Source of the DNA: Pseudonocardiaceae bacterium
GTDB lineage: Bacteria > Actinomycetota > Actinomycetes > Mycobacteriales > Pseudonocardiaceae
Reading direction: 5' to 3'
Length of the DNA: 64,000 nucleotides
NCBI GenBank assembly: GCA_050699875.1
Contig: JBOHFX010000091.1
Span: 1,631-65,630 of the forward strand
Within the stretch, counting starts at the first letter, position 1, and the number at the start of each line of letters is the position of its first letter. This document shows positions 2,850 to 59,314 of the stretch, piece by piece. The position numbers and the translations under genes were made by a program. The notes below the pieces were generated by a model, which ran no database searches, was not told where the DNA came from, and was given only the letters and a program-made list of their open reading frames with translations.

Positions 2850-2891
2850 CGCCACATCATGGGAACCCCCTGAGGAAAGGAGATCAGCAAC

Positions 2892-3095
2892 ATGGATGAT
2901 GACGCGAGGTATGAGGTGCTGCGCAACGACGAGGATCAGTACTCGCTGTGGCTGGTCGGGCTGGACGTGCCGGCGGGCTGGTATCGGGTTGGCAAGGAGG
3001 GCAGCAAGGAGGAGTGCTCGGCCTATGTCGATGAGGTGTGGACCGACATGCGGCCGCGTAGCTTGCGTGAGCAGATGGACGGTGCCCAGTCCTGA
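2892..3095 (+). CDS. MbtH-like NRPS accessory protein
   Basis: 67 aa with the signature 'NDEDQYSLW...PAGW' and the third conserved Trp in 'EVWTDMRP'. Confidence 0.9.
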   Translation: MDDDARYEVLRNDEDQYSLWLVGLDVPAGWYRVGKEGSKEECSAYVDEVWTDMRPRSLREQMDGAQS

Positions 3096-3107
3096 GCACG
3101 GGAACTG

Positions 3108-3857: not shown

Positions 3858-6800
3858 TGCCCGATTACTCTCCGCGGTGCGGTCTCCGGCAGCGGGCTCG
3901 GCCGGACGTCGATCTCCGCCATCCGGCGGACGTAGTTCTCGTAGTGCCGGCGTGCCTCGCCGAGGCGGCCTGCGTCTAGCAGCACTCCAACGAGGGTGCG
4001 ATAGGCATCCTCGTCGTAGCGATCATGTTCGAGAAGGCGCAGCGTGTACCGCACGACCGCGTCAGTATCCCCGGCGTCACGTAGCCGTGCGGACAAAGAC
4101 CGGAGTAGCGCGATGTGGGTGGCACGGACCTGTTCGGCCAGCGCAGTGCCCCACTCTTGGTAGGGGTCGTCTTCGAGGAAATCCCCAGTGTGAGCGGTGA
4201 TGGCCAGCTTGAGTCGCGTGGTGGCACTCGGCTCGTCGGCACGGTCGGCGTCGAGGGCGGCTGTGGCTCGGGCGAGAAAGTCGTCGACGTCGACGCTGAC
4301 CTGAGCCGGGTTCAATGACACCATGCCGTCGGTTGTGGCCAACGGAGCCTCACCCACGGGTTGGGGCTGCAGCACATCGCGGACCGTGGAGAGCAGCACG
4401 GACAGCCTGTTGCCAGCCAAGGCCGGGTCCACTCCCGGCCACAACAGCTCCATCAACTGATCACGCGAGGTCGGCCGGCGTCGCGCGGTCAGGATCTTCA
4501 GAAGATCCCGAGCTTTCTTCGACTGCCATGCCGTATTAGGGATGGGGATCCCGTCTCGGAGGACCCGGAATATGCCCAGTGTCTGGATGGACACCGTGGG
4601 CGAGGAACGGACCAGAGCGCCCAGCGGTCCGGCCACCCGCCGTGACTCGACGTCGACTCCGTGGTCTCGAAGCTTCCGGTCGGCGAGGTCAGCGTGGATT
4701 TCGGCAATGGGCGCGCCGATACGACCGGCCACGACTCTGGTTGCGGCTTCCTCGAGGGGGCAACCCGTCTCCTGCCAGATGTCAATCGCGTCCCGCAGCG
4801 CGTTGGCGTCCACAGCGGGATTGCTGGAGGCCAGCACGCTGAGAGTGATGGCTTCGGCCAGTCCTGGGTTGTCCCGCCGCTGCCGCGCGGTTGCGGCAGC
4901 ACGGTCAGCATCCGCCGCGGCGCCCTGCCGGTCATTGCTCATCAACTTCACCCAGCCACGGGTCAGCAATGCCTGGACCTCGCGAAGTCTTTCACCCAAC
5001 TCCACGGCCCGGTCCGCAAGCTCACGAGCCCGCTTCGGGTCTGTTGCCACACTGATGCGGGCGAGACCCATCAGCGCCGAGCTGATGCCGAAGACGTCGT
5101 GGCACGGTTGTGCGAGGGCCAGAGCTTCTTCGTACGCCGCTTGGGCTCGAACCAGCTGGCCCCTGGTCCGGTACAGGTCGCCGAGGCCGCACACAGGCCA
5201 GGCCAGGAATCGGGAACTGACCCGCTGGAAGAGGTCGGTAGCTGTCATGAAGTCGGCGGCCGCCGCATCTAGCATCCCGAGGCGCGCGCGGGCGCGTCCG
5301 CGCGTGGTTAGCGCATACGCGAGGAAAAACGGGTTCTCGCATTGCTCGCTAAGGCTCAACGCGATCTGGGAGTCGGCCAGCGCACGGCGGGGCGCGCCAG
5401 CTTCGAGCTGATGGAATGCCTGCCAAGCCCGGGTCCACGTCACCTGCAGCAGGTCCTCGCACGCCTCGGCATTGTGCTGGGCATCGGTGCAGTGGGCATC
5501 GTGTTGCAGCCAGTCGCCTTCGGCGGCGGTGAGCAACGCGAAGACCTGGTAGACCCCGGACCAGGCGCGTGGCTCGCCGCACCGTCGGGCTGCGGCACGG
5601 GCGCGGTCAGCGGTTCTCCGCAGACCCACAAGGTCGCCAGTCATCCGGTATGCGCTCGCCGACAATGTCAGCACCCGGATCTCATCCAGGGTGTTCTCGC
5701 GGTCTAACCGGGTTCGTCCCGCCAGCGCCTGGACTTCGGTGAACTCGCCCTGGGCGAACGCAATCAAGCCGATCCGCCAGCCCAGCGCGGGTTCCAGCAC
5801 GTTTTGGTTACCGCCGGCACGCTGGAAGTGCTGCAGCGCCTGCGTCCATCGGCCTCGTACCTGCTGCGCCTGCCCCAGAACTCGTTGGATCCGCGGGTCG
5901 TCGAGGTACTCGGCCGGCAGTCCGGAGGCCTCCAACACCGCGGCGACTTGGCCGCGTTCCACCATCGCACTGCCATGATCGAGCAGGAGCTCGACGCACC
6001 CGGCATGATCGCTTCCTGCGAGGAGGTGTCGCAGGGCTTCAGCCTGTGCTCCCCGCTCGGCACACACTCTGGCTGCGCTGACGTGCAGCGCCGTTCGCTC
6101 ATTTGCAGACGGCGATCCCTCGTGCCTGAAGAAGTCCCTCAACGGACGGACAAGCGACCAGCCGCCGTCCCGTCCGGTGCGCCGCACTAGTCCCTGGTGG
6201 CTTAACTCGGCAAGCGCGATCGTCGGAACATCGAGGCCACGCGCGATCTCCGTGGTGAATCTGGTTTCACCGAAGATCGCCAACTTTCGCAGCAGTTGCT
6301 GAACCCTTTCATGCGCTGCGCTAACAACCTCCTCAGCCAGGTAGCCATGGAATCGCTGTCCCGGGTCCACCAGTTGCCTCAAAGTCGCCAGGCGCTGGTT
6401 CGGCTCGACCGCCCGCAACATCTCCACAGCACAGTGCACGGCGGTGGGCCAACCGGCAGTGTGCTCCCAGACTTGCCTGGGTAGGCCGGGTGGATCTCTT
6501 CCCAGGGTTTTGCGCACGAGAGCATCGACATCGGCGACGTCCAAGGCGAGGTCTGGCGCGTGGATCTCCGCAACCAGACCGCGACCCCGCAGTCGCTGCA
6601 GGGAAAATGGGAGCTCGCATCGTGATATCAGAAGTAGATGCAGCCGCTCAGGTGCTTGCCGGCACAAGGACTCGACTACGCCGGCGGCAGCGCTGTCCGG
6701 CAGCAGCGCATGCAGGTCGTCCAGGACGAGAATGAGATCATCGCTCAGGACGCTGTGCAGCCAGGCGCAGATGGCCGCTACTGATGCCTCCAGATCGTCT

Positions 6801-12446: not shown

Positions 12447-12492
12447 GTGCAACAGATGGCAACTTTGGGCGAGAAGTTGCCATCTGTGGCAC
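12447..12492 (-). terminator. Strong hairpin 31 nt downstream of the glycosyltransferase stop (likely operon terminator; no U-tract)
   Basis: ACAGATGGCAACTT (12452-12465) pairs perfectly with AAGTTGCCATCTGT (12474-12487), with an 8-nt loop. Four further bp follow one mismatch. Confidence 0.5.
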
Positions 12493-39096: not shown

Positions 39097-39270
39097 CAGG
39101 GCACGACGTCGCCGGCCCACGGCGCGAGAAGACCTCCCCGCACCACCCGATCCACCCGGGATCGGTCCGCCCCCGGACATCAGGCCGGGGCCCGCGAATG
39201 ACGGTGCAACCGTCAGGGCGGGACGGACGGGGAGCAGACCTGGTGACGACGAGACAGGAGAACCCGTCGC

Positions 39271-46108: not shown

Positions 46109-46828
46109 TCAGTCTCCCCGGCGCACCGGACCCAGGATCTCCCGCTCCGCGGGAGTGGTGATCAGCCGCAAAGGCAGCCACAGGTCCGGACCCAACGCCA
46201 CCACTCCGTCGTCGGTCAGCAGGGCCAGCTGGTTGGCCATCGGTGCAGGCAGCCGCCACATCATGGCGGCCAGCTTCGCCTGGCTGGCCGAAAGCCGCTG
46301 GAGTAGCACCAGGTCGGCGTTGTTCGCGGTGCTCTCTGCCTGCGGGTGCAGGTAGGGCAACACGTACAGGGTCGTTTGCCACGCTGAGCGCGGAGGGAAC
46401 AGTTCCTGTGGTACCGCTCCGCCGTCGTGCACGACCACCAGCGGCGCGTCCTCCGAGGCCCGTGGCAGCTCGACCGGTGCGAGCCGGCGCACCTGCATCA
46501 GCGGAGCGGGAGAGCCGTCGGGACCCTCGCCGGCGGCTCGGGTGAGCATGTGCCAGGCTGCCGGCCGGCCGGTGGCGACGACCACCCAGGCGCCGGTGGC
46601 CATCGAGCGCAGGGCGACCTGCCGGGCTAGGTAGAGCCCGCCGACCAGGACCAGCCGGGTTGGTTGCGGACGTAGCACGGACACACTCAGGGCTTCGTCG
46701 TGCGGACCGCAACCCAGGACCATCCCCCCGCGGTCCCCTGACGGGCTGACCACGTCGAGCAGGCCGGGCGTGACGAGGAACTCCGGCGCCACCGACCTGG
46801 CTCCCGCGTGGTGAACCAGTGTCCTCAT
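46109..46828 (-). CDS. ESX-associated protein resembling a degenerate (Walker-A-less) FtsK/SpoIIIE-type NTPase domain
   Basis: Its ATG overlaps the eccE stop (ATGA at 46825-46828). 'PTRLVLVGGLYLARQVALRSMATGAWVVV' sits where a P-loop would be. 'PLVVVHDGG' is Walker-B-like. 'ADLVLLQRLSASQAKLAAMMWRLP' resembles the FtsK-domain C-terminal region. Confidence 0.5.
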   Translation of the reverse strand: MRTLVHHAGARSVAPEFLVTPGLLDVVSPSGDRGGMVLGCGPHDEALSVSVLRPQPTRLVLVGGLYLARQVALRSMATGAWVVVATGRPAAWHMLTRAAGEGPDGSPAPLMQVRRLAPVELPRASEDAPLVVVHDGGAVPQELFPPRSAWQTTLYVLPYLHPQAESTANNADLVLLQRLSASQAKLAAMMWRLPAPMANQLALLTDDGVVALGPDLWLPLRLITTPAEREILGPVRRGD

Positions 46829-48060
46829 CCGGGAACGCCGAACGGTAGCGTCGCCGCCAACCCCGCAACCTGCCGCCCACACAGCGGGCTGAGTGCCAGG
46901 CCGAGACGTTGCGAAACGGCCTGCAGCCGACCGTCGGCCGCCTCGAGTTCCGCTGGGTCGCGGGCGCTGACTCGAACCAGACCGCGCAGCCCGACCTCGG
47001 CGTCGTCTTCCCCTGGTGACAGCGACAGCGAGACGGCTGTGGACAGCGCCCGCACTCCCGTCAACGCGTTGAGATTGTGCGCCGCATTGCTAGGCCCCCA
47101 GCCGGTGATCGCGTAGCTGGCATGCCCGACCCCGGCGGCGGTGACCGCCGTCCATCCTTCATGCAGCGTCACCGGTTGCCCGGTACCGGCCACCGCGGAC
47201 AGCTCGGCGGCCGAGATGCCGGCGCGTAACAGTTGATCGGCATTCACCGGTCGGGTCGCCACACCACGGGATTCCAGCGCGCCGCGCACCCGGGACAGCG
47301 CACCGATCAGTGCCCGGTGGCAGCCCATCACCCCACCACCACGTTCGGCCACCGCGGTCGGGCAGCGGCGGGGATCCAAGCGCACCGCGATCCATGTGGT
47401 GCGGCGGGCGGCCGCCGGTAGCGGGCCGAGAACCTCCAGGTACGAGCGCAGCGCCGGGGACGACGACGGCAGAGCTGCGCTGCCCGGGTAGCAGTGCCAG
47501 ATCACCTGGATCGCGTCCAGCACTACGCCGCGGTCTTGCAGGCAGGGTGCCAGCGTGCCGAGCGGCAGGCCGGCGGCCCCGCCGACCGGTGTGATCATCG
47601 ATGGTGAAGCGACCACCTCCAGCACGGCGGTCCAGGTTCCCTGGTGCCACGCCAGGCCCAGCGGCTCGCGCTGGTGGTCGGTGCCGTGAGCGATGATCAG
47701 ATCCGGCAGGATCAGACGAAGCAGGGCGACTCGTGGATCGTCGGAGCCCCCCGTCGGCTGCAGCGAGACGGCAGCCGCCGGGTCCGGACTGGTGACGCTA
47801 CGGTCGCGGCAGCGCGCCAGGTACCCGACGGCGAGCTGGACCCACCGCACCAACCAGCGACCGCGCCAGCGGACCAGCCCCAACGGCACCGTGGTCAGCA
47901 GCACCCCCAGCGCTGCCCACCACAGGGCGGTGTCCGCGGCGAGTAACGCCAGACCGAGCGCCAGCCCGATCTCCAACACCACCAGGTTGACCAGGGGTAG
48001 TGGACCCAGGCGCGAACCCGTCGAACGCAGCTGGGGTGGAGCCGATGCTGCGGTGGTCAT
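46825..48060 (-). CDS. eccE: Type VII secretion membrane component EccE
   Basis: Start at 'MTTAASAPPQLRSTG'. Two N-terminal TM helices are followed by 'VRWRGRWLVRWVQLAVGYLARC', then a soluble C-terminal domain of about 300 aa. Divergent from eccB. The longer ORF start is an antisense overprint. Confidence 0.7.
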   Translation of the reverse strand: MTTAASAPPQLRSTGSRLGPLPLVNLVVLEIGLALGLALLAADTALWWAALGVLLTTVPLGLVRWRGRWLVRWVQLAVGYLARCRDRSVTSPDPAAAVSLQPTGGSDDPRVALLRLILPDLIIAHGTDHQREPLGLAWHQGTWTAVLEVVASPSMITPVGGAAGLPLGTLAPCLQDRGVVLDAIQVIWHCYPGSAALPSSSPALRSYLEVLGPLPAAARRTTWIAVRLDPRRCPTAVAERGGGVMGCHRALIGALSRVRGALESRGVATRPVNADQLLRAGISAAELSAVAGTGQPVTLHEGWTAVTAAGVGHASYAITGWGPSNAAHNLNALTGVRALSTAVSLSLSPGEDDAEVGLRGLVRVSARDPAELEAADGRLQAVSQRLGLALSPLCGRQVAGLAATLPFGVPG

Positions 48061-48159
48061 ATCTGGCGCCTCCGCGGGCGTGGACGGACGGTGGTCCGCC
48101 GATGGCGCTTCGCTATCCTGCGGCACCGTACAGCCCCGGGAAGAGCGGCAGGCAACCCG

Positions 48160-49638
48160 ATGTCCACCAGCCCGACCACCAAGTCGCAGGTGCAGGCCTA
48201 CCGCTTCGTGCTCCGCAGGATGCAGTCGGCGCTGGTCCGCAAGGACGCGGTGATGCTGCACGAGCCGATGCGCCACCATCTGCGGGCATCGGCGGTCGGT
48301 GCGATCGTGGGTATTCTGGGTTTGGCGGCCTTCTTCGTGGTGGGTCAGTTCCGGCCGGTCAGCGTGCTCAATGCCAATGAGATCGTCATCGGCAGCCCGT
48401 CCCAAGCGATCTTTGTGGTGCAGGACAATCCGCGGCGGCTCATCCCGGTGGTCAATCTGACGTCAGCGCGCTTGCTATTGGCGGCAATCTCACCGGGCCG
48501 GGAGGCAGCGGAGGCCAAGACGGTCGAAGATTCCACATTGGCCGGCATTTCGCGCGGGCCAATGACCGGGCTTCCCGGGCTCCCGCCGCTGCCGGTACCG
48601 GAAAACCTGATCAGCGGAGTTTGGTCGGTATGTGACACCGGCACAATCCGGCCAGATTTGCCGAATGCCGCATCCCGGCCCCAGATTTCCACCACCGTCC
48701 TGGTCCAGGAGCAGGCGCCGGCGAGCCGCCCGCTAGGCGACGATCAGGCCCTGCTCGTGGCAGAGCAGAACACGGGGATCACCTACCTGGTGTGGAACGG
48801 CAGCCGAGGGCGAGTAGACCTGCGCGACGACGCAGTGCGCAGCCACTACCGGCTGGGCAACGTTGTCCCGCGCAAGGTCAGCACCGGCCTGCTCAACGCA
48901 ATCCCCGAGGGGCCCCCGCTCACCCTGCCGGCTATCCCGACCGGACCACCATTCCCGCAGCTTCCGGGTGTCCAGGTTGGTGACGTCGTGCGGGTGAAGG
49001 GTGTCCAGGACTCGTTCTTCTTGCTCCTGCCGCAAGGTGTCCAGCCAGTCGAACCGGCGGTGGCCGACCTGATCCGCTACCGCCGCAGCACGACCACCGA
49101 TTTCGTCAACGTCACACCCGAAGCTATTTCCCGGGTGCCGGAAGCACCGATCGCTAGCCAGCTGAACCTGGCCGGCTTTCCGGCCCAGGTCCCGCAGATC
49201 GTCAAGGTCGCCGAAACGCCGGTTGCCTGCCTTACCTGGCAGGGTCCGGATCGACCTCCGGTGATCACTGTCAGTTCGGAGGAGCAGCTGTCCCTGGGCG
49301 CTGGCCAGAGCCCGGTTGAAGTGCCCCGCGCGGGCCTCGGCCAGACGGCAGACCTGGTTTTCCTGGAGCCGACCAAGGCTGCCCTGGTCCGCGGGGTGGT
49401 GCCCGGCCAGCGTCCCGACACCGGGGCCATCTGGTTGGTCACCGACCAGGGTTTCCGCTTCGGCGTGCCCTCGATGGAGGTCGCGGGTGCACTGGGGCTT
49501 GGTCAGGTCACCACGCCGGCGCCCGAGCCCATCCTGGACCTGCTGCCGATCGGGCCGACCCTGGAGCCCCAGCGGGCCTTGGAACTGTTCAATCCGGCGC
49601 TGGCCCGAGAGCAGGCCGAGCAACGCCCCGGCGGTTGA
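48160..49638 (+). CDS. eccB: Type VII secretion membrane component EccB
   Basis: 'MSTSPTTKSQVQAYRFVLRRMQSALVRKD', a single TM 'AVGAIVGILGLAAFFVV', and a large extracytoplasmic domain. Confidence 0.85.
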   Translation: MSTSPTTKSQVQAYRFVLRRMQSALVRKDAVMLHEPMRHHLRASAVGAIVGILGLAAFFVVGQFRPVSVLNANEIVIGSPSQAIFVVQDNPRRLIPVVNLTSARLLLAAISPGREAAEAKTVEDSTLAGISRGPMTGLPGLPPLPVPENLISGVWSVCDTGTIRPDLPNAASRPQISTTVLVQEQAPASRPLGDDQALLVAEQNTGITYLVWNGSRGRVDLRDDAVRSHYRLGNVVPRKVSTGLLNAIPEGPPLTLPAIPTGPPFPQLPGVQVGDVVRVKGVQDSFFLLLPQGVQPVEPAVADLIRYRRSTTTDFVNVTPEAISRVPEAPIASQLNLAGFPAQVPQIVKVAETPVACLTWQGPDRPPVITVSSEEQLSLGAGQSPVEVPRAGLGQTADLVFLEPTKAALVRGVVPGQRPDTGAIWLVTDQGFRFGVPSMEVAGALGLGQVTTPAPEPILDLLPIGPTLEPQRALELFNPALAREQAEQRPGG

Positions 49639-51245: not shown

Positions 51246-51407
51246 ATGACGATCCTGGTGACTGGCGCGACTGGGCATGTCGGCCGGCACATCGTGGAGC
51301 AGCTGGCAGCGCGTGGTGTGGCGGTGCGGGCGCTCACGCGTGCTCGCCACACCGCTGACCTACCCGAAACCCCGCTCAGCCCCGCTGGACGCGGTGGTGC
51401 CGTTTGA
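51246..51407 (+). pseudogene. 5' remnant of a second NmrA-like gene, truncated where it meets the 3' end of mycP
   Basis: My own translation gives 'MTILVTGATGHVGRHIVEQLAARGVAVRALTRARHTADLPE...', followed by nonsense over the antisense of mycP and a stop at 51405-51407. Confidence 0.4.
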
Positions 51408-52809
51408 TGGTGTGGACGATCAGTAGGGTGAGTCCTAAGAGAGTGATAGCGGCGGCGGAGCCGGCGAGAGCGATGGTGCGCGGCAGCGTGTCGTCCGGCG
51501 GTGACGGTCCGAGACCATCCAAAGTGGTCGGACGCGGCGGCTCGGGATGGGGACCTTGCTCCTCGGGCAGCACCGCAGTGAGCGCGGCGACCGGGTCGAC
51601 CATTCCGTAGCCGAGTTCCTCGCTGCGCCCATCGTGGCCGGCGGTGTGCTGGGCGGTCTTTTGGATGCGCTGCATCACCTGGCGCGCGGTCAGGTGCCGG
51701 TACCGGTCCCTGACCAGCGCGGCGAGTCCAGCGACGTATGGCGTGGCGAAGCTGGTGCCGTCGAGCCCGCGCGCTACGCCCCGGGTGTCGACGAGTGCAG
51801 TGGTCAGCCCCGGTCGACCGGCCGCCAGGGATACCGCCCCGGTGCCCGGAGCGGCCACATCCACCCACGGTGCACGGATCGAGAAGTCCGCGGGCTCGTC
51901 ATGGTCATCGGTCGCAGCGACGGTGAGCACGTCGTTGTCGAACCAGCCTGGCGACGAGATCGTGGTGACCGCTCCGGGGCTGTTCTGCTTGCAGGTGCTA
52001 CTGGTGTTGGCGGCGGCGACCACCACGACTGCGTCGTGCTCCACCGCGTAGTGCACGGCGGCCTGCAGGTCTGGGGCGTTGACCTGGTCGGGCTCGGCGG
52101 GAAAGCAGGCGGCCTCCGAGATGTTGATCACCGTCGCGCCTAGCTGGACCGCGCGCATCACGGCCTGCGCCATGCTGACCGTGTCGCCGGCACCTGAACT
52201 GCGGGTCTCCTCGCGGGTGTCGAGGTGGCGCAGCGGTACCGAATAGAAGGTGCTGGCCTGGCGAATGGCCAGGATCTGCGCGTCAGGCGCTACTCCGACG
52301 AATCGAGTGGCTGGATCGGGCGCTGCGGCGATGAGGCCGGCTACCGCAGTGCCATGGCCGTCGCAGTCGAAAAGGCCGCTGCGATTCTCGATGTAATCGC
52401 CACCGTCGACCAACCTTCCGCGCAGTCTGGGATGCGGCTGAACGCCACTGTCGATCACGGCGATCCGCTGGTCGCGTCCGGTCGCGAACTCGTGGGCTTG
52501 CCGGATCCGCAGCCGCTGTTGCGCCGGCGGCTCGGCTTCCAGGTCCGGTGCGCCAGCTAGTGCCGGCTGCTGGCAGGGCGCCTGCTGCTCGACCGGGCCG
52601 GTCTGCCGGGTAGCCGTGTTGTTCACGGTGTAAGGCATGGCTTTCACGCTGCCGGGGGTTGGCACGGCGGCTGGATTCACGGGAGGTGGTATCCCTGGTG
52701 GTCGGCTGCCGGGCTGGGCGGCCACTGACCACCCCGGACCCACCAGGCACAGCAAAGCGGCCCCGACAGCCCCAGCCGCAGTGCGGCGACGACCGGCGAA
52801 TGTCTTCAC
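51376..52809 (-). CDS. mycP: Mycosin (subtilisin-like type VII secretion protease)
   Basis: Signal peptide; 'AVIDSGV' (Asp), 'DGHGTAVAGLIAA' (His), 'GTSFATPYVAGLAALV' (Ser); C-terminal TM anchor 'AAAITLLGLTLLIVHTI'. Confidence 0.9.
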   Translation of the reverse strand: MKTFAGRRRTAAGAVGAALLCLVGPGWSVAAQPGSRPPGIPPPVNPAAVPTPGSVKAMPYTVNNTATRQTGPVEQQAPCQQPALAGAPDLEAEPPAQQRLRIRQAHEFATGRDQRIAVIDSGVQPHPRLRGRLVDGGDYIENRSGLFDCDGHGTAVAGLIAAAPDPATRFVGVAPDAQILAIRQASTFYSVPLRHLDTREETRSSGAGDTVSMAQAVMRAVQLGATVINISEAACFPAEPDQVNAPDLQAAVHYAVEHDAVVVVAAANTSSTCKQNSPGAVTTISSPGWFDNDVLTVAATDDHDEPADFSIRAPWVDVAAPGTGAVSLAAGRPGLTTALVDTRGVARGLDGTSFATPYVAGLAALVRDRYRHLTARQVMQRIQKTAQHTAGHDGRSEELGYGMVDPVAALTAVLPEEQGPHPEPPRPTTLDGLGPSPPDDTLPRTIALAGSAAAITLLGLTLLIVHTIKRHHRVQRG

Positions 52810-54356
52810 AATGCCCGGAAGGTGTTGTAGAGGTCCATCACACCCAGGGCCAGCGGTAGCACCGCGGCGATGAGCACCGCTTCCATGACGTCTACCGCGC
52901 GGCGTGCCACCGGCGAGAACCGGCGGCGAGGCAGGACCAGTCCGGCGATCAGCGCGAACGTCGCGACAACCAGCAGGCCACCGAAGCCGACCAGCAGCAA
53001 GACGGCCTGGTCAGCTGTCGCCATTAGCCCGGCCATCATCCCGCCTACCGCGGCCATCCCGCTGACCAGCAGCGCTATCGCCTGGCTGCCGTTGGCGTAG
53101 GACCGGGCCCGCAAGAGCAGAACGGCGGCGACGACGGCGCCCAGTAGGACTCCCAACGTACCACCGGCCGCGGCCAGGACCGCGCCGATCGCGGCTACCG
53201 CACCGGCTCCCATGATCATGCCGGTCAGATACTCGTGTGCCAGACCTGACCGACGCTCGATCGCGGTGTAGTTCGGTAATCCAGCGTCTTCCTGGAGGTC
53301 CTGGGCGCTACTCGGAACCTTTGGCATCGGTAGCCGAGACAGTTGGATGGTCAACCGGGGCAACGCCGAGATGGCACCGAGAGCCAGTGCAGCTGCCCCC
53401 GCCGCGATGCCTGCCCCGGGACGATCAACCAGGCTGGCCACCAGAAAAGCCAACGCTCCCAGTGCAGCGGCGGTGGCGGTGGCGACGAACGGTGTGATGC
53501 CGGCACCAAGCACCATGATCGACGCGCTGGCGAGCACCAGGGTCAGCGTGCAGGCCAGTAAGAGGTTCTCCGAGCCGACGCTGCCAGGAACGATGTAGAG
53601 GCCGCTGACGAAGCCCAGCGGCAGGCTTGCTGCTGCGACCAGCACGCCCGCGTTCGTCTCGGCGTACACCCGGCCAATGACCGAGCCGACGACCAGCGCG
53701 GTCACCGCTGCCGCACCCGCGAGGAAGGCGACGCCGAGCCCGGGTCCGGCGCGGAGCAGGGCAACGGCACCGCCCAGCAACGCCAATCCGCCTGCGACCA
53801 TCCCGAGCGTGCGGGCAGTTCGCTCGGTCCATGGGCGGTAGCTGCTCGGTGCGGTTGCCGCGATGGCTTCGACCACGTCGTCGAACAGCGGGGGCGGGGG
53901 GTTGTCGGTACGGCGCCGGAGCTGCAACAGATCGCCGTCGACCACGCCCAGTGCGGCCAGCGGACGGTCCGGATCGATCACCTCGCCGCCGAGCTTCGCC
54001 AGACACCAGCCGCCGTGCCTGGTGCCACCGTCTGGACTGGACTCGCCGGCCATCTTGAGCAGCATCGGCAACAGATTGACGACCGCGACATCCGACGGCA
54101 GCGCCAGGTCGATGCGGGTGCGGGGGGCTACCACTGTCACTCTGCTCAGCGCTGCGGACGGTGGAACCGTCGATCCAGCGCCGGACGGTGGAACCGTCGA
54201 TCCAGCGCCGGACGGTGGAACTGACTGTGACGGTTGCATCAAGGGTCCCGCCGAATGTCGAGCCGTCGATCCAGCCCGAGACGGTGGAACCGTCGATCCA
54301 GCCCGAGACGGTTGAACCGCCGGAGCCCCGTTGGTATTGCTCGGCACCCGCTGCAC
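52806..54356 (-). CDS. eccD: Type VII secretion membrane channel component EccD (start uncertain: 54356, 54239 or GTG 54140)
   Basis: 'RVTVVAPRTRIDLALPSDVAVVNLLPMLLKM' is the ubiquitin-like N-domain, followed by about 11 TM helices. The stop overlaps the mycP start. Confidence 0.85.
   Translation of the reverse strand: MQRVPSNTNGAPAVQPSRAGSTVPPSRAGSTARHSAGPLMQPSQSVPPSGAGSTVPPSGAGSTVPPSAALSRVTVVAPRTRIDLALPSDVAVVNLLPMLLKMAGESSPDGGTRHGGWCLAKLGGEVIDPDRPLAALGVVDGDLLQLRRRTDNPPPPLFDDVVEAIAATAPSSYRPWTERTARTLGMVAGGLALLGGAVALLRAGPGLGVAFLAGAAAVTALVVGSVIGRVYAETNAGVLVAAASLPLGFVSGLYIVPGSVGSENLLLACTLTLVLASASIMVLGAGITPFVATATAAALGALAFLVASLVDRPGAGIAAGAAALALGAISALPRLTIQLSRLPMPKVPSSAQDLQEDAGLPNYTAIERRSGLAHEYLTGMIMGAGAVAAIGAVLAAAGGTLGVLLGAVVAAVLLLRARSYANGSQAIALLVSGMAAVGGMMAGLMATADQAVLLLVGFGGLLVVATFALIAGLVLPRRRFSPVARRAVDVMEAVLIAAVLPLALGVMDLYNTFRAL
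54157..54320. repeat. 27-bp tandem repeats (about 5 units, two subfamilies) at or upstream of the eccD 5' end
   Basis: GACGGTGGAACCGTCGATCCAGCGCCG occurs at 54157-54183 and 54184-54210, with a partial third unit. CCGTCGATCCAGCCCGAGACGGTGGAA occurs at 54263-54289 and 54290-54316. In the eccD frame these encode STVPPS(G/R)AG units. Confidence 0.85.
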
Positions 54357-54767
54357 TCCTCGCTCGGCCCGCCGATGTGCGGTGGCCGCGGCACTGTAGT
54401 TCCCGGAGTATCCATCGGTGCAGCGCCAGCCGTTCTAGGGGCCCGCACCCCCGGCTCGTCCTCCACACCTGCGACGATGGGCCACAGGACGTGGACAATT
54501 GCAGTAATGCACCGGCCGCCGATCGGCCCAGCGGATGCGCAGCTCATCGCCGAGAGGCCGCAAGCCGACGGCCAACGGCTCATCGCTCCTGATCCGGCTT
54601 ACCGCCCACCATCGGCCGTGTCGGTATGGCCTCAGGCATCGAGCGTGGCGAGTTCTATCTGCTCGACCCGCTGCACCTGCGCGCTCTCGCGTCCTGGCGT
54701 CGTTTGTCGCAGCAGCCACAGTGTCACGTCAGCCCCAGCAAGGACGCACAGCGATTTTCTGTGCAGT

Positions 54768-54809
54768 TGCCACAGGCGGCAACTGCGGAGATGGTTGCCG
54801 CCTGTGGCA
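54768..54809. other. Perfect 16-bp inverted repeat in the eccD-eccC divergent spacer
   Basis: TGCCACAGGCGGCAAC (54768-54783), a 10-nt loop, then GTTGCCGCCTGTGGCA (54794-54809). Confidence 0.6.
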
Positions 54810-55200
54810 CGTTCTCACGCTGCAACACCCCTTCCCGGGCAGCCCGTACAGCGACGATCGCCGTTCGTCTCCCCCAACGCCGAGCCTCGATCTCGGATGA
54901 TCGCCTTGTCGGTAGGAGGCTGTTGCCGAGTTGCTCCGTGACGACGGGACCGGCGTGGTAGGCCCCGGAAGAACGTCCGTGGCGTCGAGTTCACGGACAC
55001 CGCTGGTTGACAGGCTCCGGGGAGGGGCCTGGTGGTATTCGGGTGAACCGCCGTGGCGCGCTACGGCGGCTGCTCCGGCATCGCTGACCATCTGCCCTTC
55101 GTCAGCGTCACGCAGGCGCTAGGGTGACCGGCCGCGCGCGAAGCCGTCCACCGTCCACGGGGTGATCGCGCGCGGGTGGGCCCCGGGAGGTGGTCTGGAC

Positions 55201-58200
55201 ATGAGCACCGTGCAGTTCCGGCGATTACCGCGGCTGGCCGCGCCGAAGATGCCCGGTGGAGAGGTTCATCTGGAGGCGCCACCCGAGGTGCCCAGGGTCC
55301 TGCCCGGCAACATCGTGCAGAAGATCCTGCCGGTCGTGATGATCGTGGCCGTGCTGGGCATGTTGGCCTACGTCTTCACCAGCGGGGAGGCCAGAAGCAA
55401 CCCACTGTTCCTGATGTTTCCGATCATGATGGTGGTGTCGACCGCCGGCATGTTCATCGGCAACGGCCGTGGCGGCCAGGCCAAGGCCGAGATGAACGAG
55501 GACCGCAAGGATTACCTACGCTACCTGGGCCAGATGCGGGAACGGGCTCGGGAGGCCGCGCAGGAGCAGCGCGCGGCATTGGAGTGGAGCCATCCCGATC
55601 CCGCCGCGTTGTGGTCGATCGCAAGCAGCCGACGGATGTGGGAGCGCCGCGGCGGTGACCCGGACTTTTGCCACGTGCGGATTTGCCGGGGGTCGCAGCG
55701 GCTGGCCACCCGGCTGGTGCCGCCGCAGACCGGTCCGGTGGACGAGCTGGAGCCGATCACCACGTTGGCGCTGCGCCAGTTCGTCCGAGCGCATTCCATC
55801 GTGCCGGAGCTGCCGATTGCGATCTCGGTGCGTGGGTTCGCCGCGATCGGGATCTCCGGCGATCCGGCCCTGTCCCGGGGGCTGGCGCGCTCGATGGTGG
55901 CCCAGCTGGCTACCTTCCACAACCCCGACGACCTACTCGTTGCCGTGGCCACCGCTGGGCGGGCGAAGGCGGACTGGGAATGGGCGAAGTGGTTGCCGCA
56001 CGTGCAACATCCCAGCCGCGTCGACGGTGCCGGGCCGATGCGGATCATGGCCGGCTCGCTGGCCCAGATCGAGGAGCTGCTCGCCGAACAGTTCCGGGAC
56101 CGGCCGCGGTTCGCTCGCAATGCCCAGCCGCACGGCGACGGCCCGCATATTCTGATCGTCATCGACGGCGGGGAGGTCACCGGCGCGGAGCAGATCATCC
56201 TCGAGGAGGGACTGGCCGGGGTGACCCTGCTTGACCTCTCGGATTCACTGGGCACCCTGACCAGCCGCCGTGGGCTGCAGCTGGCGATCGAGGGTGCGGC
56301 GATCGGCGCCCGCGGGGCGACCGAGGTCGAGTTCTTCGGATCTCCTGACTCGCTGGGCGTCGTCGAGGCCGAGGCGGTGGCTCGCGCGTTGTGCCCCTAC
56401 CGCCTCGGCACAGCGGACTCGCAGGGCGAGGACGAGCCGCTGTCAGGCAGCAACGAGCTGCTCGAACTGCTTGGCCTTGCCGCGGATCCCCGCGCCTTAG
56501 ACGTCGCCCAGGCGTGGCGCCCGCGCCCGATCCGGGACCGGTTGCGGGTACCGATCGGGGTCGGCGAGTTCGGTCAACCGGTCGAGCTGGACATCAAGGA
56601 AGCCGCCCAGGGCGGGATGGGTCCGCACGGACTGTGCGTGGGGGCCACTGGATCGGGCAAGTCGGAGTTCCTGCGCACCCTGGTCCTGGGCCTGATCGCC
56701 ACCCACTCGTCGTCGATGCTCAACCTCGTGCTCGTCGACTTCAAGGGCGGCGCGACGTTCCTGGGCATGGAGCACGCCCCGCATGTCGCCGCGGTGATCA
56801 CCAACCTGGCCGACGACCTGACCCAGGTCACCCGCATGCAGGACGCGCTGGCCGGCGAGATGAATCGCCGCCAGGAACTGCTGCGCACCGCAGGAAACTT
56901 CGCCAACGTCAAGGACTACGAAAAGGCCCGGGAAAACGGCGCCGACCTCGATCCGCTGCCGGCGCTGTTCATCGTGATCGACGAGTTCTCCGAGTTGCTC
57001 GCCCAGAAACCGGAATTCATCGACCTGTTCGTGGCGATCGGCCGGCTGGGCCGCTCGCTGCAGATGCACTTGTTGCTTGCATCGCAACGCCTCGAGGAGG
57101 GCCGGCTGCGCGGCTTGGAGTCCCACCTGTCCTACCGGATCGGTCTGAAGACTTTCTCCGCCGGGGAGTCCCGGGCAGTGCTGGGGGTGCCCGACGCCTA
57201 CGAGCTGCCGCCGGTGCCCGGCTCGGGCTACCTGAAGTTCGACACCACGTCCATGGAGCGCTTCAAAGCGTCCTACGTCTCGGGCCCGTACCGCGCCGGC
57301 GGTGCCATCGCGGCGCCTGGTACGACTGAAGTCACTTCGGACCGCCGGCCCCGACCTTTCGTGCCCGACTACGTAGAGCCACCCGAGCCGGCTGAGGTCG
57401 CCGGGCACCACCACGTGATCGAGGCGCCGGTGATCGAGAACGTCACCGAACCCAGCGTGCTGGACATCGTGGTGGACCTGCTGAGAGGGCAGGGGCCACC
57501 GGCTCACGAGGTGTGGCTGCCGCCGCTGGAAGCGCCGCCCTCGCTGGATCAGCTGCTGCCCCCGTTGTCGGCGACCGAGGATCGCGGGTTGTCCCCGGTC
57601 GGGTTCTTCGGCAACGGCCGGCTCGCCGTCCCGGTCGGGATTGTGGACAAGCCCTACGAGCAGCGCCGTGACCTGCTCTGGGCGGACCTCTCCGGGGCCG
57701 CCGGCCACGCCGTGGTCACCGGCGGCCCGCAGTCTGGCAAGTCCACCCTGCTGCGTTCCATGCTGATGTCGCTGGCGCTCACCCACACCCCGGAAGAGGT
57801 GCAGTTTTTCGGCATCGACTTCGGTGGCGGCACGCTGGCGTCACTGGATGGCCTGCCGCACAGCGGCGGGGTGGCCGGGCGGCTGGAGCCGGACACAATC
57901 CGGCGCATTCTCGCCGAGGTGACCGGGTTGCTCACCGCCCGCGAGCAGCGCTTCCGATCCCAGGGCATCGATTCGATGGCCGATTTCCGGGCCCGCAAGC
58001 AACGCAGCCAAGCGACTGACGATCCCTTCGGCGATGTGTTCCTGGTGATCGACGGATGGCACAGCTTCCGCCAGGAGTTCGATGTCACCGACCTGGAGAT
58101 GCGGGTGGTGAACCTGGCCACCCAGGGTCTGTCCTACGGGGTGCACGTGGTGATCGGCGCCACCCGCTGGGCCGAGATCCGGCCCGCTTTGAAAGACCTG

Positions 58201-59196
58201 CTCGGTACCCGTTTCGAGCTGCGCCTCGGTGATCCGGGCGAGTCCGATATCGATCGGCGGGTGGCGGTCAATGTGCCGCCGGGTCGGCCGGGACGGGGAT
58301 TGTCCCGGGACAAGCTGCATTTCCTCGCCGCGCTACCCAGGATCGACGCGGCCACCAGCGCCGAGGACGTCGGCATCGGGGTGGCCGATGCGGTGGCGCA
58401 CATCCGCGGCGGGTGGCAGGGCCATCGGGCACCCCGGGTCCGGCTGCTGCCCGACCGGATCCCCTACCAGCAGTTGCCCACCCCGCAGCCGCCACGACCG
58501 CACCTGATCCCGATCGGGGTCAACGAGGCCGAGCTCGCGACGGTGTATCTCGACTTCGCCGCCGAGCCGCATTTCCTGTGCTTCGCCGAGGGCGAGTGCG
58601 GCAAGACCAACCTGCTGCGGACGATCGCCCGAGGCATTGTGCAACGCTGCTCGCCGGATCAGGCGCGCATCATCATGGTCGATTACCGCCGCACCATGCT
58701 CGGCTTCCTGGACTCCGAACACGTCATCGGGTACGGCATGTCCGCCGACTCGCTGACCCCGATCATCAGTGACGTGCAGCGTTCCATGCGCCAGCGCCTG
58801 CCTGGGGCCGGTGTCACCCAGCAGCAGCTCCGGGACGGCTCCTGGTGGTCGGGCCCGGAGCTCTACGTCCTGGTCGACGACTACGACCTGGTGGCCACCC
58901 AGGGCGGCCCGAACCCGCTCGCACCGCTGCTGGAGTTCTTGGCGCAGGCCAAGGACGTGGGACTGCATTTGATCGTCACCCGGCGTTCGGGTGGTGCCGC
59001 GCGGGCCCTGTTCGAGCCGTTCATCGCCCGGCTGCGGGAGCTGTCCACACCCGGCATCGTGATGAGCGGCAGCCCCGAAGAGGGCCCGTTGCTGGGCAAC
59101 GTCAAACCGGCTCTGATGCCGCCCGGTCGCGGCACTCTGATCGGGCGCAAGACCGGTCAGCAACTCGTCCAGATCGCCTGGATACCTACGGACTGA
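55201..59196 (+). CDS. eccC: Type VII secretion FtsK/SpoIIIE-family ATPase EccC (three ATPase domains)
   Basis: 'MSTVQFRRLPRLAAPKMPGGEVHLEAPPEVP' and two TM helices. P-loops are 'GATGSGKSEFL', 'GGPQSGKSTLL' and 'GECGKTNLL'. Confidence 0.95.
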   Translation: MSTVQFRRLPRLAAPKMPGGEVHLEAPPEVPRVLPGNIVQKILPVVMIVAVLGMLAYVFTSGEARSNPLFLMFPIMMVVSTAGMFIGNGRGGQAKAEMNEDRKDYLRYLGQMRERAREAAQEQRAALEWSHPDPAALWSIASSRRMWERRGGDPDFCHVRICRGSQRLATRLVPPQTGPVDELEPITTLALRQFVRAHSIVPELPIAISVRGFAAIGISGDPALSRGLARSMVAQLATFHNPDDLLVAVATAGRAKADWEWAKWLPHVQHPSRVDGAGPMRIMAGSLAQIEELLAEQFRDRPRFARNAQPHGDGPHILIVIDGGEVTGAEQIILEEGLAGVTLLDLSDSLGTLTSRRGLQLAIEGAAIGARGATEVEFFGSPDSLGVVEAEAVARALCPYRLGTADSQGEDEPLSGSNELLELLGLAADPRALDVAQAWRPRPIRDRLRVPIGVGEFGQPVELDIKEAAQGGMGPHGLCVGATGSGKSEFLRTLVLGLIATHSSSMLNLVLVDFKGGATFLGMEHAPHVAAVITNLADDLTQVTRMQDALAGEMNRRQELLRTAGNFANVKDYEKARENGADLDPLPALFIVIDEFSELLAQKPEFIDLFVAIGRLGRSLQMHLLLASQRLEEGRLRGLESHLSYRIGLKTFSAGESRAVLGVPDAYELPPVPGSGYLKFDTTSMERFKASYVSGPYRAGGAIAAPGTTEVTSDRRPRPFVPDYVEPPEPAEVAGHHHVIEAPVIENVTEPSVLDIVVDLLRGQGPPAHEVWLPPLEAPPSLDQLLPPLSATEDRGLSPVGFFGNGRLAVPVGIVDKPYEQRRDLLWADLSGAAGHAVVTGGPQSGKSTLLRSMLMSLALTHTPEEVQFFGIDFGGGTLASLDGLPHSGGVAGRLEPDTIRRILAEVTGLLTAREQRFRSQGIDSMADFRARKQRSQATDDPFGDVFLVIDGWHSFRQEFDVTDLEMRVVNLATQGLSYGVHVVIGATRWAEIRPALKDLLGTRFELRLGDPGESDIDRRVAVNVPPGRPGRGLSRDKLHFLAALPRIDAATSAEDVGIGVADAVAHIRGGWQGHRAPRVRLLPDRIPYQQLPTPQPPRPHLIPIGVNEAELATVYLDFAAEPHFLCFAEGECGKTNLLRTIARGIVQRCSPDQARIIMVDYRRTMLGFLDSEHVIGYGMSADSLTPIISDVQRSMRQRLPGAGVTQQQLRDGSWWSGPELYVLVDDYDLVATQGGPNPLAPLLEFLAQAKDVGLHLIVTRRSGGAARALFEPFIARLRELSTPGIVMSGSPEEGPLLGNVKPALMPPGRGTLIGRKTGQQLVQIAWIPTD

Positions 59197-59314
59197 CCCG
59201 CGGGCGTTCGCGCATGCAACGTTCTGCGACCACACGGTCACGGACCGGAACCGGTCGCCAGCTGTGGCGTTCCCCGTATAGGAAGACCGTCCAAGCCCGA
59301 GGAGACCGCAGCAG

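What the first reader, a model, noticed from the sequence alone, without database searches (positions are those of the whole stretch)
54141..55200. Very long eccD-eccC divergent spacer (0.85-1.06 kb) with no convincing ORF
Core ESX genes are normally tightly packed. Here at least 845 bp separate the eccD ORF start (54356) from the eccC ATG (55201). The gap grows to about 1060 bp if EccD starts at GTG 54140, just before the conserved 'TVVAPRTRIDLALP'.

The six-frame ORFs in the interval translate to low-complexity Arg/Pro/Ala strings.

The region holds the 27-bp repeat array and a perfect 16-bp palindrome (54768-54809), which has a relative at 12447-12492.

The region must contain both divergent promoters. 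It could also encode a regulatory RNA or multiple operator sites controlling the secretion machine.
Basis: seen in the sequence. Interest (0 to 1): 0.6.

Follow-up and report, generated by a model that had tools for sequence, protein, structure and literature searches.

The report
Composite eccD-eccC spacer, no hidden gene
The long gap between two secretion-machine genes is real, but it is a patchwork: a repeat-built start of the EccD protein, conserved promoter regions, and inserted hairpin repeats, with no hidden gene or known regulatory RNA.

Summary
eccD (minus strand) and eccC (plus strand) are divergent, and 853 bp separate their starts. In other families of the order, 108-363 bp separate the conserved N-termini.

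The interval has four parts:
1. 54141-54347 is coding. EccD starts at GTG 54347 behind a GAGGAG Shine-Dalgarno (ribosome-binding) site. The 27-bp repeats encode an in-frame PPSxAGSTV tail, with 0-7 units across 33 orthologues.
2. 54348-54594 is a genus-conserved eccD promoter and upstream region. It includes an invariant GATACT box and a two-part box, and shows no conserved RNA fold.
3. 54595-55095 is filler shared only with the nearest relative. It carries the 16-bp palindrome, which belongs to a dispersed hairpin family (5 copies in this genome, 23 of 71 genus genomes). It also carries a decayed copy of a second, commoner hairpin family.
4. 55096-55200 is the conserved eccC promoter (TAGGGT), a leader hairpin and the ribosome-binding site.

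I found no Pfam-positive or conserved ORF, no tRNA and no convincing Rfam match.

This site takes insertions repeatedly. Relatives carry Uma2 endonuclease, hydrolase or membrane-protein genes here, or have no eccC within about 3-9 kb upstream of eccD.

One oddity remains. Each repeat unit holds a genus-specific palindrome, GACGGT-N3-ACCGTC. It is conserved at synonymous sites and also occurs in tandem between groES and groEL.

No transcript data could be obtained.

The parts
52806..54347 (-). eccD coding sequence (513 aa) with the start proposed here, GTG 54347-54345
   Evidence: Pfam PF19053 and PF08817 are recorded on its homologues. The start codon is GTG or TTG in 33/33 distinct orthologues. 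GAGGAG lies 8 nt upstream. There is no stop before the conserved VTVVAPRTRIDLALP.
54141..54347 (-). N-terminal tail of EccD, rich in Pro, Ser, Thr, Gly and Ala, encoded by an in-frame 27-bp minisatellite. TRF arrays are at 54155-54221 and 54263-54319. Unit: GGATCGACGGTTCCACCGTCC..., peptide PPSxAGSTV.
   Evidence: Orthologues carry 0-7 units, and all indels are multiples of 3. All 90 units in 30 orthologues are in one frame. Sibling genera have only MATGTTVFSR before VTVV.
54157..54294 (.). Three exact copies of the palindrome GACGGT-N3-ACCGTC (54157-54171, 54184-54198, 54280-54294), one per repeat unit. Near copies lie at 54211-54225 and 54307-54321.
   Evidence: There are 9 exact copies in the genome against 0.55 expected. 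The arms are 87-100% conserved across 90 units, including third codon positions.
54348..54361 (-). eccD translation initiation region: Shine-Dalgarno GAGGAG (54356-54361) plus an 8-nt spacer
   Evidence: The block GGCCGAGCGAGGAGTGCAGCGG is nearly invariant in 32 orthologues.
54407..54412 (-). GATACT, candidate -10 box of the eccD promoter. The inferred 5' UTR is about 53 nt.
   Evidence: Invariant in 28/28 aligned leaders. Its role as a promoter is inferred, not shown.
54413..54594 (-). Genus-conserved eccD upstream region. Blocks: ACCTGCGACGAT at 54467-54478, and a two-part box with ATCGCCGAGAGGC (54546-54558) and GACGGCCAACGGCTC (54567-54581).
   Evidence: The box is unique in the genome. 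It is kept upstream of eccD in genomes where eccC is not adjacent. No conserved fold. Single-base indels exclude coding.
54595..55095 (.). Lineage-specific filler. It is absent from most relatives and partly shared with the nearest relative, G051.
   Evidence: Spacer alignment. blastn against G051 matches 53000-54584, 54888-54958 and 55095-55232; no BLAST match covers 54585-54887. No Pfam hit and no conserved ORF.
54742..54846 (+). Family-A hairpin element. Perfect 16-bp arms at 54768-54783 / 54794-54809. Family consensus: ACGTGCC-N6-GGCAAC-loop-GTTGCC-N6-GGCACGT.
   Evidence: Folding z-score -5.2 (plus strand) and -3.7 (minus strand). 5 elements in the own genome, 23/71 genus genomes, 0 control hits. 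A hairpin of the same type lies at the equivalent place in G051, seen by eye in the printed sequence.
54936..54996 (+). Decayed family-B hairpin. The right arm AACGTCCGTGGCGTCGAGTTCACGG (54972-54996) is intact. The left arm (54936-54956) has deletions.
   Evidence: 39 right arms in the genome at <=4 mismatches, most paired with a left arm CCGTGAACTCGACGnCACCGACGT. There are hits in many genus genomes. The window copy no longer folds better than shuffles, z +0.2 and +0.5.
55120..55125 (+). TAGGGT, candidate -10 box of the eccC promoter, inside the conserved block GCTAGGGTGACC
   Evidence: Present in 16 of 19 distinct upstream sequences. Its role as a promoter is inferred.
55126..55200 (+). eccC 5' leader: GC hairpin CCGCGCGCGA (55132-55141) / TCGCGCGCGG (55166-55175), then Shine-Dalgarno GGGAGG (55185-55190)
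   Evidence: In most relatives a 5' ACCUCU pairs with the Shine-Dalgarno site in the lowest-energy fold. That anti-SD stretch is deleted in the window.
55201..59196 (+). eccC. The start is conserved as ATG or GTG followed by Ser-Thr.

Best explanation
The interval is a composite with four parts.

1. 54141-54347 is translated.
- EccD begins at GTG 54347, behind a GAGGAG ribosome-binding site.
- It carries an N-terminal tail that looks low in complexity and probably disordered.
- A 27-bp in-frame minisatellite builds this tail. Copy number drifts between species.

2. 54348-54594 is the eccD promoter, a short 5' UTR and an upstream control region.
- It is conserved through this uncultured Pseudonocardiaceae genus.
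- It travels with eccD even where eccC has been displaced.

3. 54595-55095 is passenger DNA acquired in the common ancestor of this genome and its nearest relative.
- It holds one intact and one decayed member of two dispersed hairpin-repeat families.
- These most likely spread as small non-autonomous repeats and have no ESX-specific role.

4. 55096-55200 is the conserved eccC promoter plus a structured leader that ends in the ribosome-binding site.

The gap is long for two reasons. The genus has an enlarged control region, and the divergent junction tolerates insertions and acquires them repeatedly.

Shown: the anatomy, the conservation, the reading-frame behaviour and the repeat families.
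Inferred: the promoter assignments, actual use of the upstream start codon, and the passenger status of the hairpins.
For: Coding tail:
- All 33 distinct orthologues keep the EccD frame open from the conserved ERGVQRVPT to VTVVAPRT, with 0-7 units and only 3n indels.
- The start codon is GTG or TTG in 33/33 orthologues; GAGGAG lies 8 nt upstream.
- Any initiation there reads into eccD without a stop.
- The codons PSTVFSR upstream of GTG 54140 vary mostly at third positions: 0.116 / 0.083 / 0.24 for positions 1 / 2 / 3, my means of the per-position values printed.
- Sibling genera translate a short MATGTTVFSR tail, and their VTVV valine is GTC.
- Gene callers gave the long form for many homologues, including ones 67-71% identical that have a non-repetitive tail.

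Conserved control regions.
- Block 54508-54594 is found in at least 30 genus genomes.
- It stays upstream of eccD in G085, G070, G082 and G072, where no eccC lies within about 3-9 kb.

Filler and hairpins:
- Alignment and BLAST.
- Family A is dispersed. Its variable 6-nt stem segment differs between copies and is complementary in some copies and mismatched in others.
- Family B is abundant.

No hidden gene or RNA.

Insertion-prone site:
- Inserted genes: Uma2 endonuclease in G051 and G043, alpha/beta hydrolase in G006, membrane protein in a sibling genus.
- About a third of the named genus loci (17 of 56) have no eccC start within 2.5 kb.
Against:
- GTG 54140 remains a possible second start, as does the GTG in STVFSR in most orthologues.
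- The eight codons right after the proposed start (VPTNTNGA) vary about equally at all three positions (0.16 / 0.13 / 0.15). This fits a weakly constrained tail but is not positive evidence for coding.
- In the repeat units, conservation follows the palindrome rather than the codons. The same 27-bp repeat occurs in another reading frame at the 5' end of a SAF-domain gene. The DNA itself may therefore have a function.
- GATACT and TAGGGT are imperfect -10 boxes, and the consensus scan found no sigma-70-type promoter.
- Two of the four family-A hairpin copies whose flanks I examined sit in divergent promoter regions, so a regulatory role is not excluded.
Confidence: 0.72

Rival explanations
1. 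EccD starts at GTG 54140. Under this reading the 27-bp units are non-coding: a tandem array of palindromic operator sites or RNA hairpins in the eccD 5' UTR. The true spacer would then be 1060 bp.
For: - The palindrome arms are conserved at third codon positions (0.84-0.96), and the rare codons GTT and CCA are kept.
- The central nucleotide, a second codon position, is the most variable position of the palindrome.
- The same palindrome occurs in tandem in clearly non-coding DNA between groES and groEL. The same 27-bp repeat lies in another frame at C178:2265-2306.
- The motif is enriched about 16-fold.
- Many database gene calls use the short form of 441-445 aa.
Against: - All indels in 33 orthologues are multiples of 3, and all 90 units share one frame.
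- A conserved Shine-Dalgarno site plus a GTG or TTG start lies upstream with no intervening stop, so ribosomes starting there make the long protein.
- The codons just upstream of 54140 show a coding pattern of variation.
- In sibling genera the VTVV valine is GTC, not a start codon.
- A coding role and a DNA or RNA role can coexist.
Confidence: 0.13
2. The filler 54595-55095 encodes something functional. This could be a small protein (for example ORF 54626-54961) or a small RNA ending at the family-A hairpin.
For: - At 54600-54750, GC is highest at the third position and lowest at the second position of the frame of ORF 54626-54961.
- The hairpin is very stable, z -5.2.
Against: - The ORF has no Pfam hit, no paralogue and no counterpart even in the nearest relative.
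- There is no U-tract terminator and no sigma-70-type promoter.
- There is no convincing Rfam match.
- Most relatives lack the whole segment.
Confidence: 0.07
3. The 16-bp palindrome, together with its relative at 12447-12492, is the operator of a regulator that controls the ESX-4 genes.
For: - It lies between divergent starts.
- A second copy lies 41 nt upstream of the start of an AAA ATPase gene.
- The sequence blocks GGCAAC and GGCACGT are conserved across the family.
Against: - The element occurs at unrelated loci: after a response-regulator gene, and between unrelated divergent genes.
- It occurs in only 23 of 71 genus genomes.
- In the seven-spacer alignment, only the window has it; G011, G004, G005, G021 and G010 align gaps there and G006 aligns inserted-gene DNA. 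All of these keep the ESX-4 genes. A survey of 31 named spacers found a GGCAAC..GTTGCC inverted repeat in only two.
- In several copies the variable 6-nt stem segment differs between copies yet stays complementary. This points to a hairpin or a fold-back origin, not to sequence-specific half-sites.
Confidence: 0.06

Closest known systems
ESX-4 locus of mycobacteria (eccB4, mycP4, eccD4, eccC4, esxU/esxT beside rplM-rpsI-glmM)
   Same: - The gene set and order match: EccE, EccB, MycP, EccD, then divergent EccC and two WXG100 genes, followed by rplM, rpsI and glmM.
- A GGAACCG motif, the SigM -35 box reported for M. abscessus and M. smegmatis (PMC13491425), lies 62 nt upstream of the WXG100 pair.
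   Different: - The eccD-eccC junction is three to five times longer than in other families of the order.
- EccD has a repeat-built N-terminal tail restricted to this genus.
- Accessory genes (Phd antitoxin, NmrA-like) sit inside the locus.
- No SigM-type promoter is evident for eccC or eccD.
In-frame minisatellites of actinobacteria, such as mycobacterial MIRU/VNTR loci (comparison from my own knowledge)
   Same: - They are short tandem units whose length keeps the reading frame.
- Copy number varies between relatives.
- They sit at gene ends.
   Different: - The unit is 27 bp and lies inside the 5' coding part of a core secretion gene.
- Each unit contains a 15-bp palindrome that also occurs outside genes.
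REP/BIME-type dispersed palindromic repeats, and the conserved hairpin 'TRIT' elements of M. tuberculosis (from my own knowledge)
   Same: - Families A and B are short, GC-rich hairpins.
- Family B is multi-copy (39 right arms) and its paired copies lie mostly between genes. Family A is low-copy (5 elements here) and the copies examined are intergenic.
- The stem sequence is conserved between copies.
   Different: - The 97%-complete genome has no REP-associated Y1 transposase.
- There is no U-tract.
- Two of the four family-A copies examined lie between divergent gene starts, where a terminator has no obvious use.
- Family A has a variable 6-bp stem segment that is complementary in some copies and mismatched in others.

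Membership tests
ESX-4-type type VII secretion locus (context) | Core genes eccB, eccC, eccD, mycP and a WXG100 pair are present | tested here: met
   Pfam hits for EccB, EccE and two WXG100 proteins. EccD homologues carry PF19053 and PF08817. EccC and MycP were recognised by 72-89% identical orthologues in relatives.
ESX-4-type type VII secretion locus (context) | Lies next to rplM-rpsI-glmM, with eccD and eccC divergent | tested here: met
   Ribosomal_L13, Ribosomal_S9 and phosphoglucomutase domains lie downstream of the esx pair. eccD and eccC are divergent in 27/27 loci across the order.
In-frame coding minisatellite (VNTR) | Unit length is a multiple of 3, one reading frame is shared with the host gene, and copy number varies among relatives | tested here: met
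   The unit is 27 bp. Orthologues carry 0-7 units and the frame is always open. 90/90 units are in one frame.
In-frame coding minisatellite (VNTR) | The repeat is actually translated | not testable with these tools
   This needs proteomics or ribosome profiling. Support is indirect: the conserved Shine-Dalgarno site and start codon.
REP elements with RAYT transposase | Short palindromic repeats, multi-copy, mostly intergenic | tested here: met
   Family B: 39 right arms and 22 paired hairpins; 14 of the 22 are intergenic, 5 overlap a called gene edge and 3 lie inside a called gene. Family A: 5 copies.
REP elements with RAYT transposase | A cognate Y1 (IS200/IS605-like) transposase gene is in the genome | tested here: not met
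   PF01797 gives no match in the own genome (96.9% complete). The positive controls matched.
Intrinsic transcription terminator | GC-rich hairpin followed by a U-tract, downstream of a gene | tested here: not met
   No terminator-like site in 54000-55300. The hairpin lies between two divergent gene starts.
Known RNA families (Rfam 15) | Covariance-model match at or near the gathering score | tested here: not met
   The only match is MIR4371 at 19.4 bits against a gathering score of 110, E 0.52. No tRNA or tmRNA.
Structured cis-regulatory RNA in the conserved block 54508-54594 | A conserved secondary structure with covariation | tested here: not met
   RNAalifold covariation term -0.28 kcal/mol on 24 sequences. 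The minus-strand consensus is -3.6 kcal/mol.
SigM-dependent promoter | A -35 GGAACCG box with a suitably spaced -10 box, facing the regulated gene | tested here: inconclusive
   - GGAACCG occurs in three repeat units, but antisense to eccD and about 1 kb from eccC.
- It has no counterpart of the CGTTCC found 14 nt downstream of the local esx-promoter GGAACCG.
- The published -10 consensus could not be read.

The most novel reading that the evidence does not exclude
The 15-bp palindrome GACGGT-N3-ACCGTC may be a genus-specific cis-element that works as a tandem operator array or as a row of RNA hairpins. Under this reading it is embedded in the translated 5' end of eccD, so the repeats both encode the EccD tail and regulate it. 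It also lies in the groES-groEL spacer, at the 5' end of a SAF-domain gene and upstream of rpsM. At three of these four loci the centre reads TCN in the sense of the local genes (TCC at eccD, TCG at groES-groEL and the SAF-domain gene); at rpsM it reads GCA.
Probability: 0.25. Interest if true: 0.6.

Novelty: new member of a known kind. Interest (0 to 1): 0.3.

Why it matters
- The result corrects the gene model of a core ESX-4 component: EccD probably has 513 aa with a variable repeat tail. Public gene calls for its close homologues mix long forms with a short form of 441-445 aa.
- It shows that a gap that looked like a regulatory anomaly is mostly coding repeat plus inserted repeats.
- It marks short conserved boxes (GATACT, the two-part box at 54546-54581, TAGGGT and the leader hairpin) as the places to test for ESX-4 control in an uncultured soil lineage.
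- The palindrome-bearing coding minisatellite and the family-A hairpins are small, testable curiosities, not a new system.

Tried and rejected
- **Remnant of the hydrolase gene.** A relative (G006) carries a hydrolase gene in this spacer. tblastn of it against the window spacer found nothing.
- **Small ORF in block 54508-54594.** Both strands read open and peptide-like. Single-base indels in G069, G051, G072 and G021 break every frame. Variation sits in a 9-10-nt linker between invariant boxes.
- **RNA fold of that block.** No covariation on either strand.
- **Regulon search with the conserved boxes.** Each box is unique in the genome.
- **Classical REP elements with a RAYT transposase.** No Y1 transposase is present.
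- **SigM promoters in the repeats.** The orientation is wrong and there is no matching -10 box. The SigM papers PMC6048512 and PMC1698216 are not held.
- **tRNA-like look of the family-B arm.** ARAGORN finds nothing.
- **Intergenic-length statistics.** My crude GC3-based gene caller misses too many genes to be informative: 6% of its gaps are at least 845 bp.
- **Start-codon logic test.** I asked whether any in-frame start lies between 54347 and VTVV. The test was not decisive, because most orthologues have a GTG in STVFSR and all have the GTG of VTVV.
Full report
**Setting**

The window carries an ESX-4-type type VII secretion locus of an uncultured member of the Pseudonocardiaceae. All close relatives are soil and sediment MAGs labelled Pseudonocardiaceae or Pseudonocardiales bacterium.

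The gene order is:
- eccE (-), eccB (+), a Phd antitoxin, an NmrA-like gene;
- mycP (51376-52809, -) and eccD (-);
- the gap;
- eccC (55201-59196, +) and two WXG100 genes;
- rplM, rpsI and glmM.

This is the arrangement known from mycobacterial ESX-4 (my own knowledge). In 27 of 27 loci sampled across other genera and families of the order, eccD and eccC are likewise divergent.

**The observation**

- the ORF start at GTG 54356 and the alternative GTG 54140;
- the eccC ATG at 55201;
- two 27-bp arrays, 54155-54221 and 54263-54319;
- the perfect 16-bp inverted repeat 54768-54783 / 54794-54809;
- its relative at 12447-12492.

The gap is long by the standard of relatives.
- In other families, the distance between the conserved EccD and EccC N-termini is 108-363 bp. 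Two loci are exceptions at 902 and 1069 bp; the 902-bp one holds an inserted gene.
- In this genus the same distance is 248-2158 bp (median 675) in the 31 named loci that have both genes.

**Part 1: the 27-bp repeats are coding**

*Frame behaviour.* In all 33 distinct orthologous sequences the EccD frame is open from a conserved ERG-VQR-VPT to FSR-VTVVAPRTRIDLALP.
- The number of PPSxAGSTV units ranges from 0 to 7.
- Every length difference is a multiple of three.
- All 90 units from 30 orthologues sit in the same frame relative to eccD.

*Start site.* The sequence GGCCGAGCGAGGAGTGCAGCGG is nearly invariant. It is followed by GTG in 30 orthologues and TTG in 3, both valid start codons. GAGGAG is therefore placed 8 nt upstream of the start.
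- In the window this start is GTG 54347.
- GTG 54356 overlaps the ribosome-binding site and is too close to it.
- No stop follows, so initiation at 54347 necessarily produces the long EccD.

*Other support.*
- The seven codons before GTG 54140 vary mainly at third positions.
- Sibling genera have a short MATGTTVFSR tail and a GTC valine at VTVV, which rules out that codon as their start.
- Homologues only 67-71% identical have a non-repetitive tail that still begins MPT..N and ends PSTVF(S/T)R.

I therefore place the eccD start at 54347 with about 80% confidence. The true intergenic distance is then 853 bp.

**A wrinkle in the repeats**

Each unit contains the palindrome GACGGT-N3-ACCGTC.
- Across the 90 units, the arms are 87-100% conserved, including third codon positions (0.84-0.96). 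The rare codons GTT and CCA are kept.
- For comparison, third positions in the adjacent, highly conserved eccD codons are on average about 75% conserved.
- The central base is a second codon position that switches Pro, Gln and Arg. It is the most variable position of the palindrome.

The exact palindrome occurs 9 times in the genome, against 0.55 expected from shuffled arms:
- three times in eccD;
- twice in tandem between groES and groEL;
- twice in tandem, with 27-bp period and in another reading frame, at the 5' end of a SAF-domain gene;
- once 56 nt upstream of rpsM;
- once inside a long unrelated gene.

At eccD, groES-groEL and the SAF-domain gene the centre reads TCN in the sense of the local genes; at rpsM it reads GCA. 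The tandem form is found in 26 of 71 genomes of the genus, and in none of 193 genomes from 59 other genera of the family.

So the DNA or RNA of the repeat seems to be under a constraint of its own, but I cannot say what it does. The GGAACCG inside the eccD version equals the published SigM -35 box (PMC13491425). Here, however, it points away from eccD and has no matching -10 box. A properly placed GGAACCG does precede the WXG100 genes.

**Part 2: the conserved eccD control region (54348-54594)**

Aligned leaders of 28 orthologues show these blocks:
- an invariant GATACT (54412-54407 on the minus strand), which has the A and T most critical for a -10 box;
- ATCGTCGCAGGT;
- CCAGACCCCTC;
- a two-part box, GAGCCGTTGACCGT, then a 9-10-nt linker, then GCCTCTCGGCGATG.

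The block 54508-54594 is detectable in at least 30 genomes.
- It is unique in the own genome.
- It has no conserved RNA fold on either strand.
- It cannot be coding, because single-base indels break every frame.
- It stays upstream of eccD in G085, G070, G082 and G072, where no eccC lies within about 3-9 kb. It therefore belongs to eccD.

I read it as promoter plus upstream protein-binding boxes. This is an inference.

**Part 3: the filler (54595-55095)**

Relatives with short spacers go from the conserved block to the eccC promoter in about 170 bp. The window has about 500 bp.

Only two stretches of the filler recur elsewhere in the genome:
- 54742-54846, the family-A hairpin;
- 54916-54996, the family-B hairpin.

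*Family A.* The consensus is ACGTGCC-N6-GGCAAC-loop-GTTGCC-N6-GGCACGT.
- There are 5 elements in this genome. 23 of 71 genus genomes have at least one, with no hits for the reversed control.
- The N6 stem segment differs between copies. It is fully complementary in several of them (ACCGGT, ATCGGT, ATCTGT, ACCTGT, GTCCCT and GCCTGT with its complement) and has one to several mismatches in others.
- It folds far better than shuffles, z -5.2 and -6.5.
- The copies I examined lie after a response-regulator gene, between unrelated divergent genes, and between a glycosyltransferase stop and an AAA ATPase start.

*Family B.* The form is CCGTGAACTCGACGnCACCGACGT-loop-AACGTCGGTGGCGTCGAGTTCACGG.
- It has 39 right arms in the genome, and some copies lie inside a longer multi-copy non-coding repeat.
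- The window copy has a damaged left arm and no longer folds better than chance.

A family-A-type and a family-B-type hairpin can be seen at the equivalent places in the printed spacer of the nearest relative, G051. The window shares a further BLAST-detectable 70 bp (54888-54958) with G051. So the insert predates the split of the two genomes.

The genome has no Y1 transposase, so these are not classical REP/RAYT systems.

None of the filler ORFs has a Pfam hit, a paralogue or an orthologue. Rfam and ARAGORN find nothing convincing. The GC-by-codon-position signal at 54600-54750 is the only hint of past or present coding.

**Part 4: the eccC side (55096-55200)**

The conserved elements are the block GCTAGGGTGACC (TAGGGT at 55120-55125), a GC-rich hairpin and GGGAGGTG.

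In most relatives the lowest-energy fold pairs a 5' ACCUCU with the ribosome-binding site. In the window that stretch is deleted, and the hairpin CCGCGCGCGA / TCGCGCGCGG remains. There is no covariation to test, because both partners are invariant.

**Why the gap is long**

Two factors add up.
- The genus has a larger control region. True intergenic distances are 342-699 bp in the main group.
- The junction accepts insertions. Examples are Uma2 endonuclease genes in G051 and G043, an alpha/beta hydrolase in G006 and a membrane protein in a sibling genus.
- In 17 of 56 named genus loci no eccC start lies within 2.5 kb. In five of six genomes checked further, none lies within the sequence fetched upstream of eccD, about 3 kb in one case and about 8-9 kb in the other four.

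The window's 853 bp equals a typical genus spacer plus the hairpin-bearing insert of roughly 330-450 bp.

**Limits**

- Two SigM papers were not held.
- Promoters, the start codon and any function of the palindromes therefore remain predictions.

**Verdict**

The feature is largely ordinary: a coding minisatellite, divergent promoters and dispersed hairpin repeats. One unexplained element remains, the palindrome conserved inside the coding repeat.

Noticed in passing
G000:C91:74145-74184 (same contig, about 8.5 kb beyond the window's end): Two copies of GACGGTTCGACCGTC, 25 bp apart, lie between the groES stop and the groEL start. The orthologous site in G004 (C17:125231-125270) carries them too, and G049 has a very similar tandem (C299:22332-22371) whose context I did not check.
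   Followed up: partly
window 39200-39214: A single palindrome GACGGTGCAACCGTC lies 56 nt upstream of the rpsM start.
   Followed up: no
G000:C178:2255-2320: Three 27-bp units of the same repeat family lie at the 5' end of a SAF-domain (CpaB-like) ORF. They read MRMRRFDRP in a different frame from the eccD units. This stretch is probably 5' UTR or a mis-called start.
   Followed up: partly
window 59247-59253: GGAACCG, the published SigM -35 box, lies 62 nt upstream of the first WXG100 gene and is followed 14 nt later by CGTTCC. This suggests that SigM-type control of the esx pair is conserved outside mycobacteria.
   Followed up: partly
G000: C2:95349, C103:5494, C156:8754, C69, C93, C97, C173: A non-coding repeat longer than 150 bp, with a family-B hairpin at its core, is present in at least 7 near-identical copies. 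Several copies lie at contig ends, and the three copies examined have no transposase-like gene beside them.
   Followed up: partly
L024 (G051) 2127-3123; L159 (G043) 4913-5818; L020 (G006) spacer; L054 spacer: Relatives carry whole genes inside the eccD-eccC junction: Uma2-family endonuclease in two genomes, an alpha/beta hydrolase in one, and a membrane protein in a sibling genus.
   Followed up: partly
L157, L158, L160, L161, L162: In five genomes of the genus, no eccC lies within the sequence fetched upstream of eccD (about 3 kb in L162, about 8-9 kb in the others). The eccD-mycP pair and the eccD upstream block are kept. I did not look for where eccC has gone.
   Followed up: no
window 46825-48405 (-) and 48091-49638 (+): The longest eccE ORF overlaps the eccB ORF by about 300 bp. 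The EccE Pfam domain begins at residue 331, so the real eccE start is probably well downstream of 48405.
   Followed up: no
window 55126-55140 compared with relatives: The window has lost the ACCUCU stretch that pairs with the eccC ribosome-binding site in most relatives' leaders. This may loosen translational control of eccC in this lineage.
   Followed up: partly
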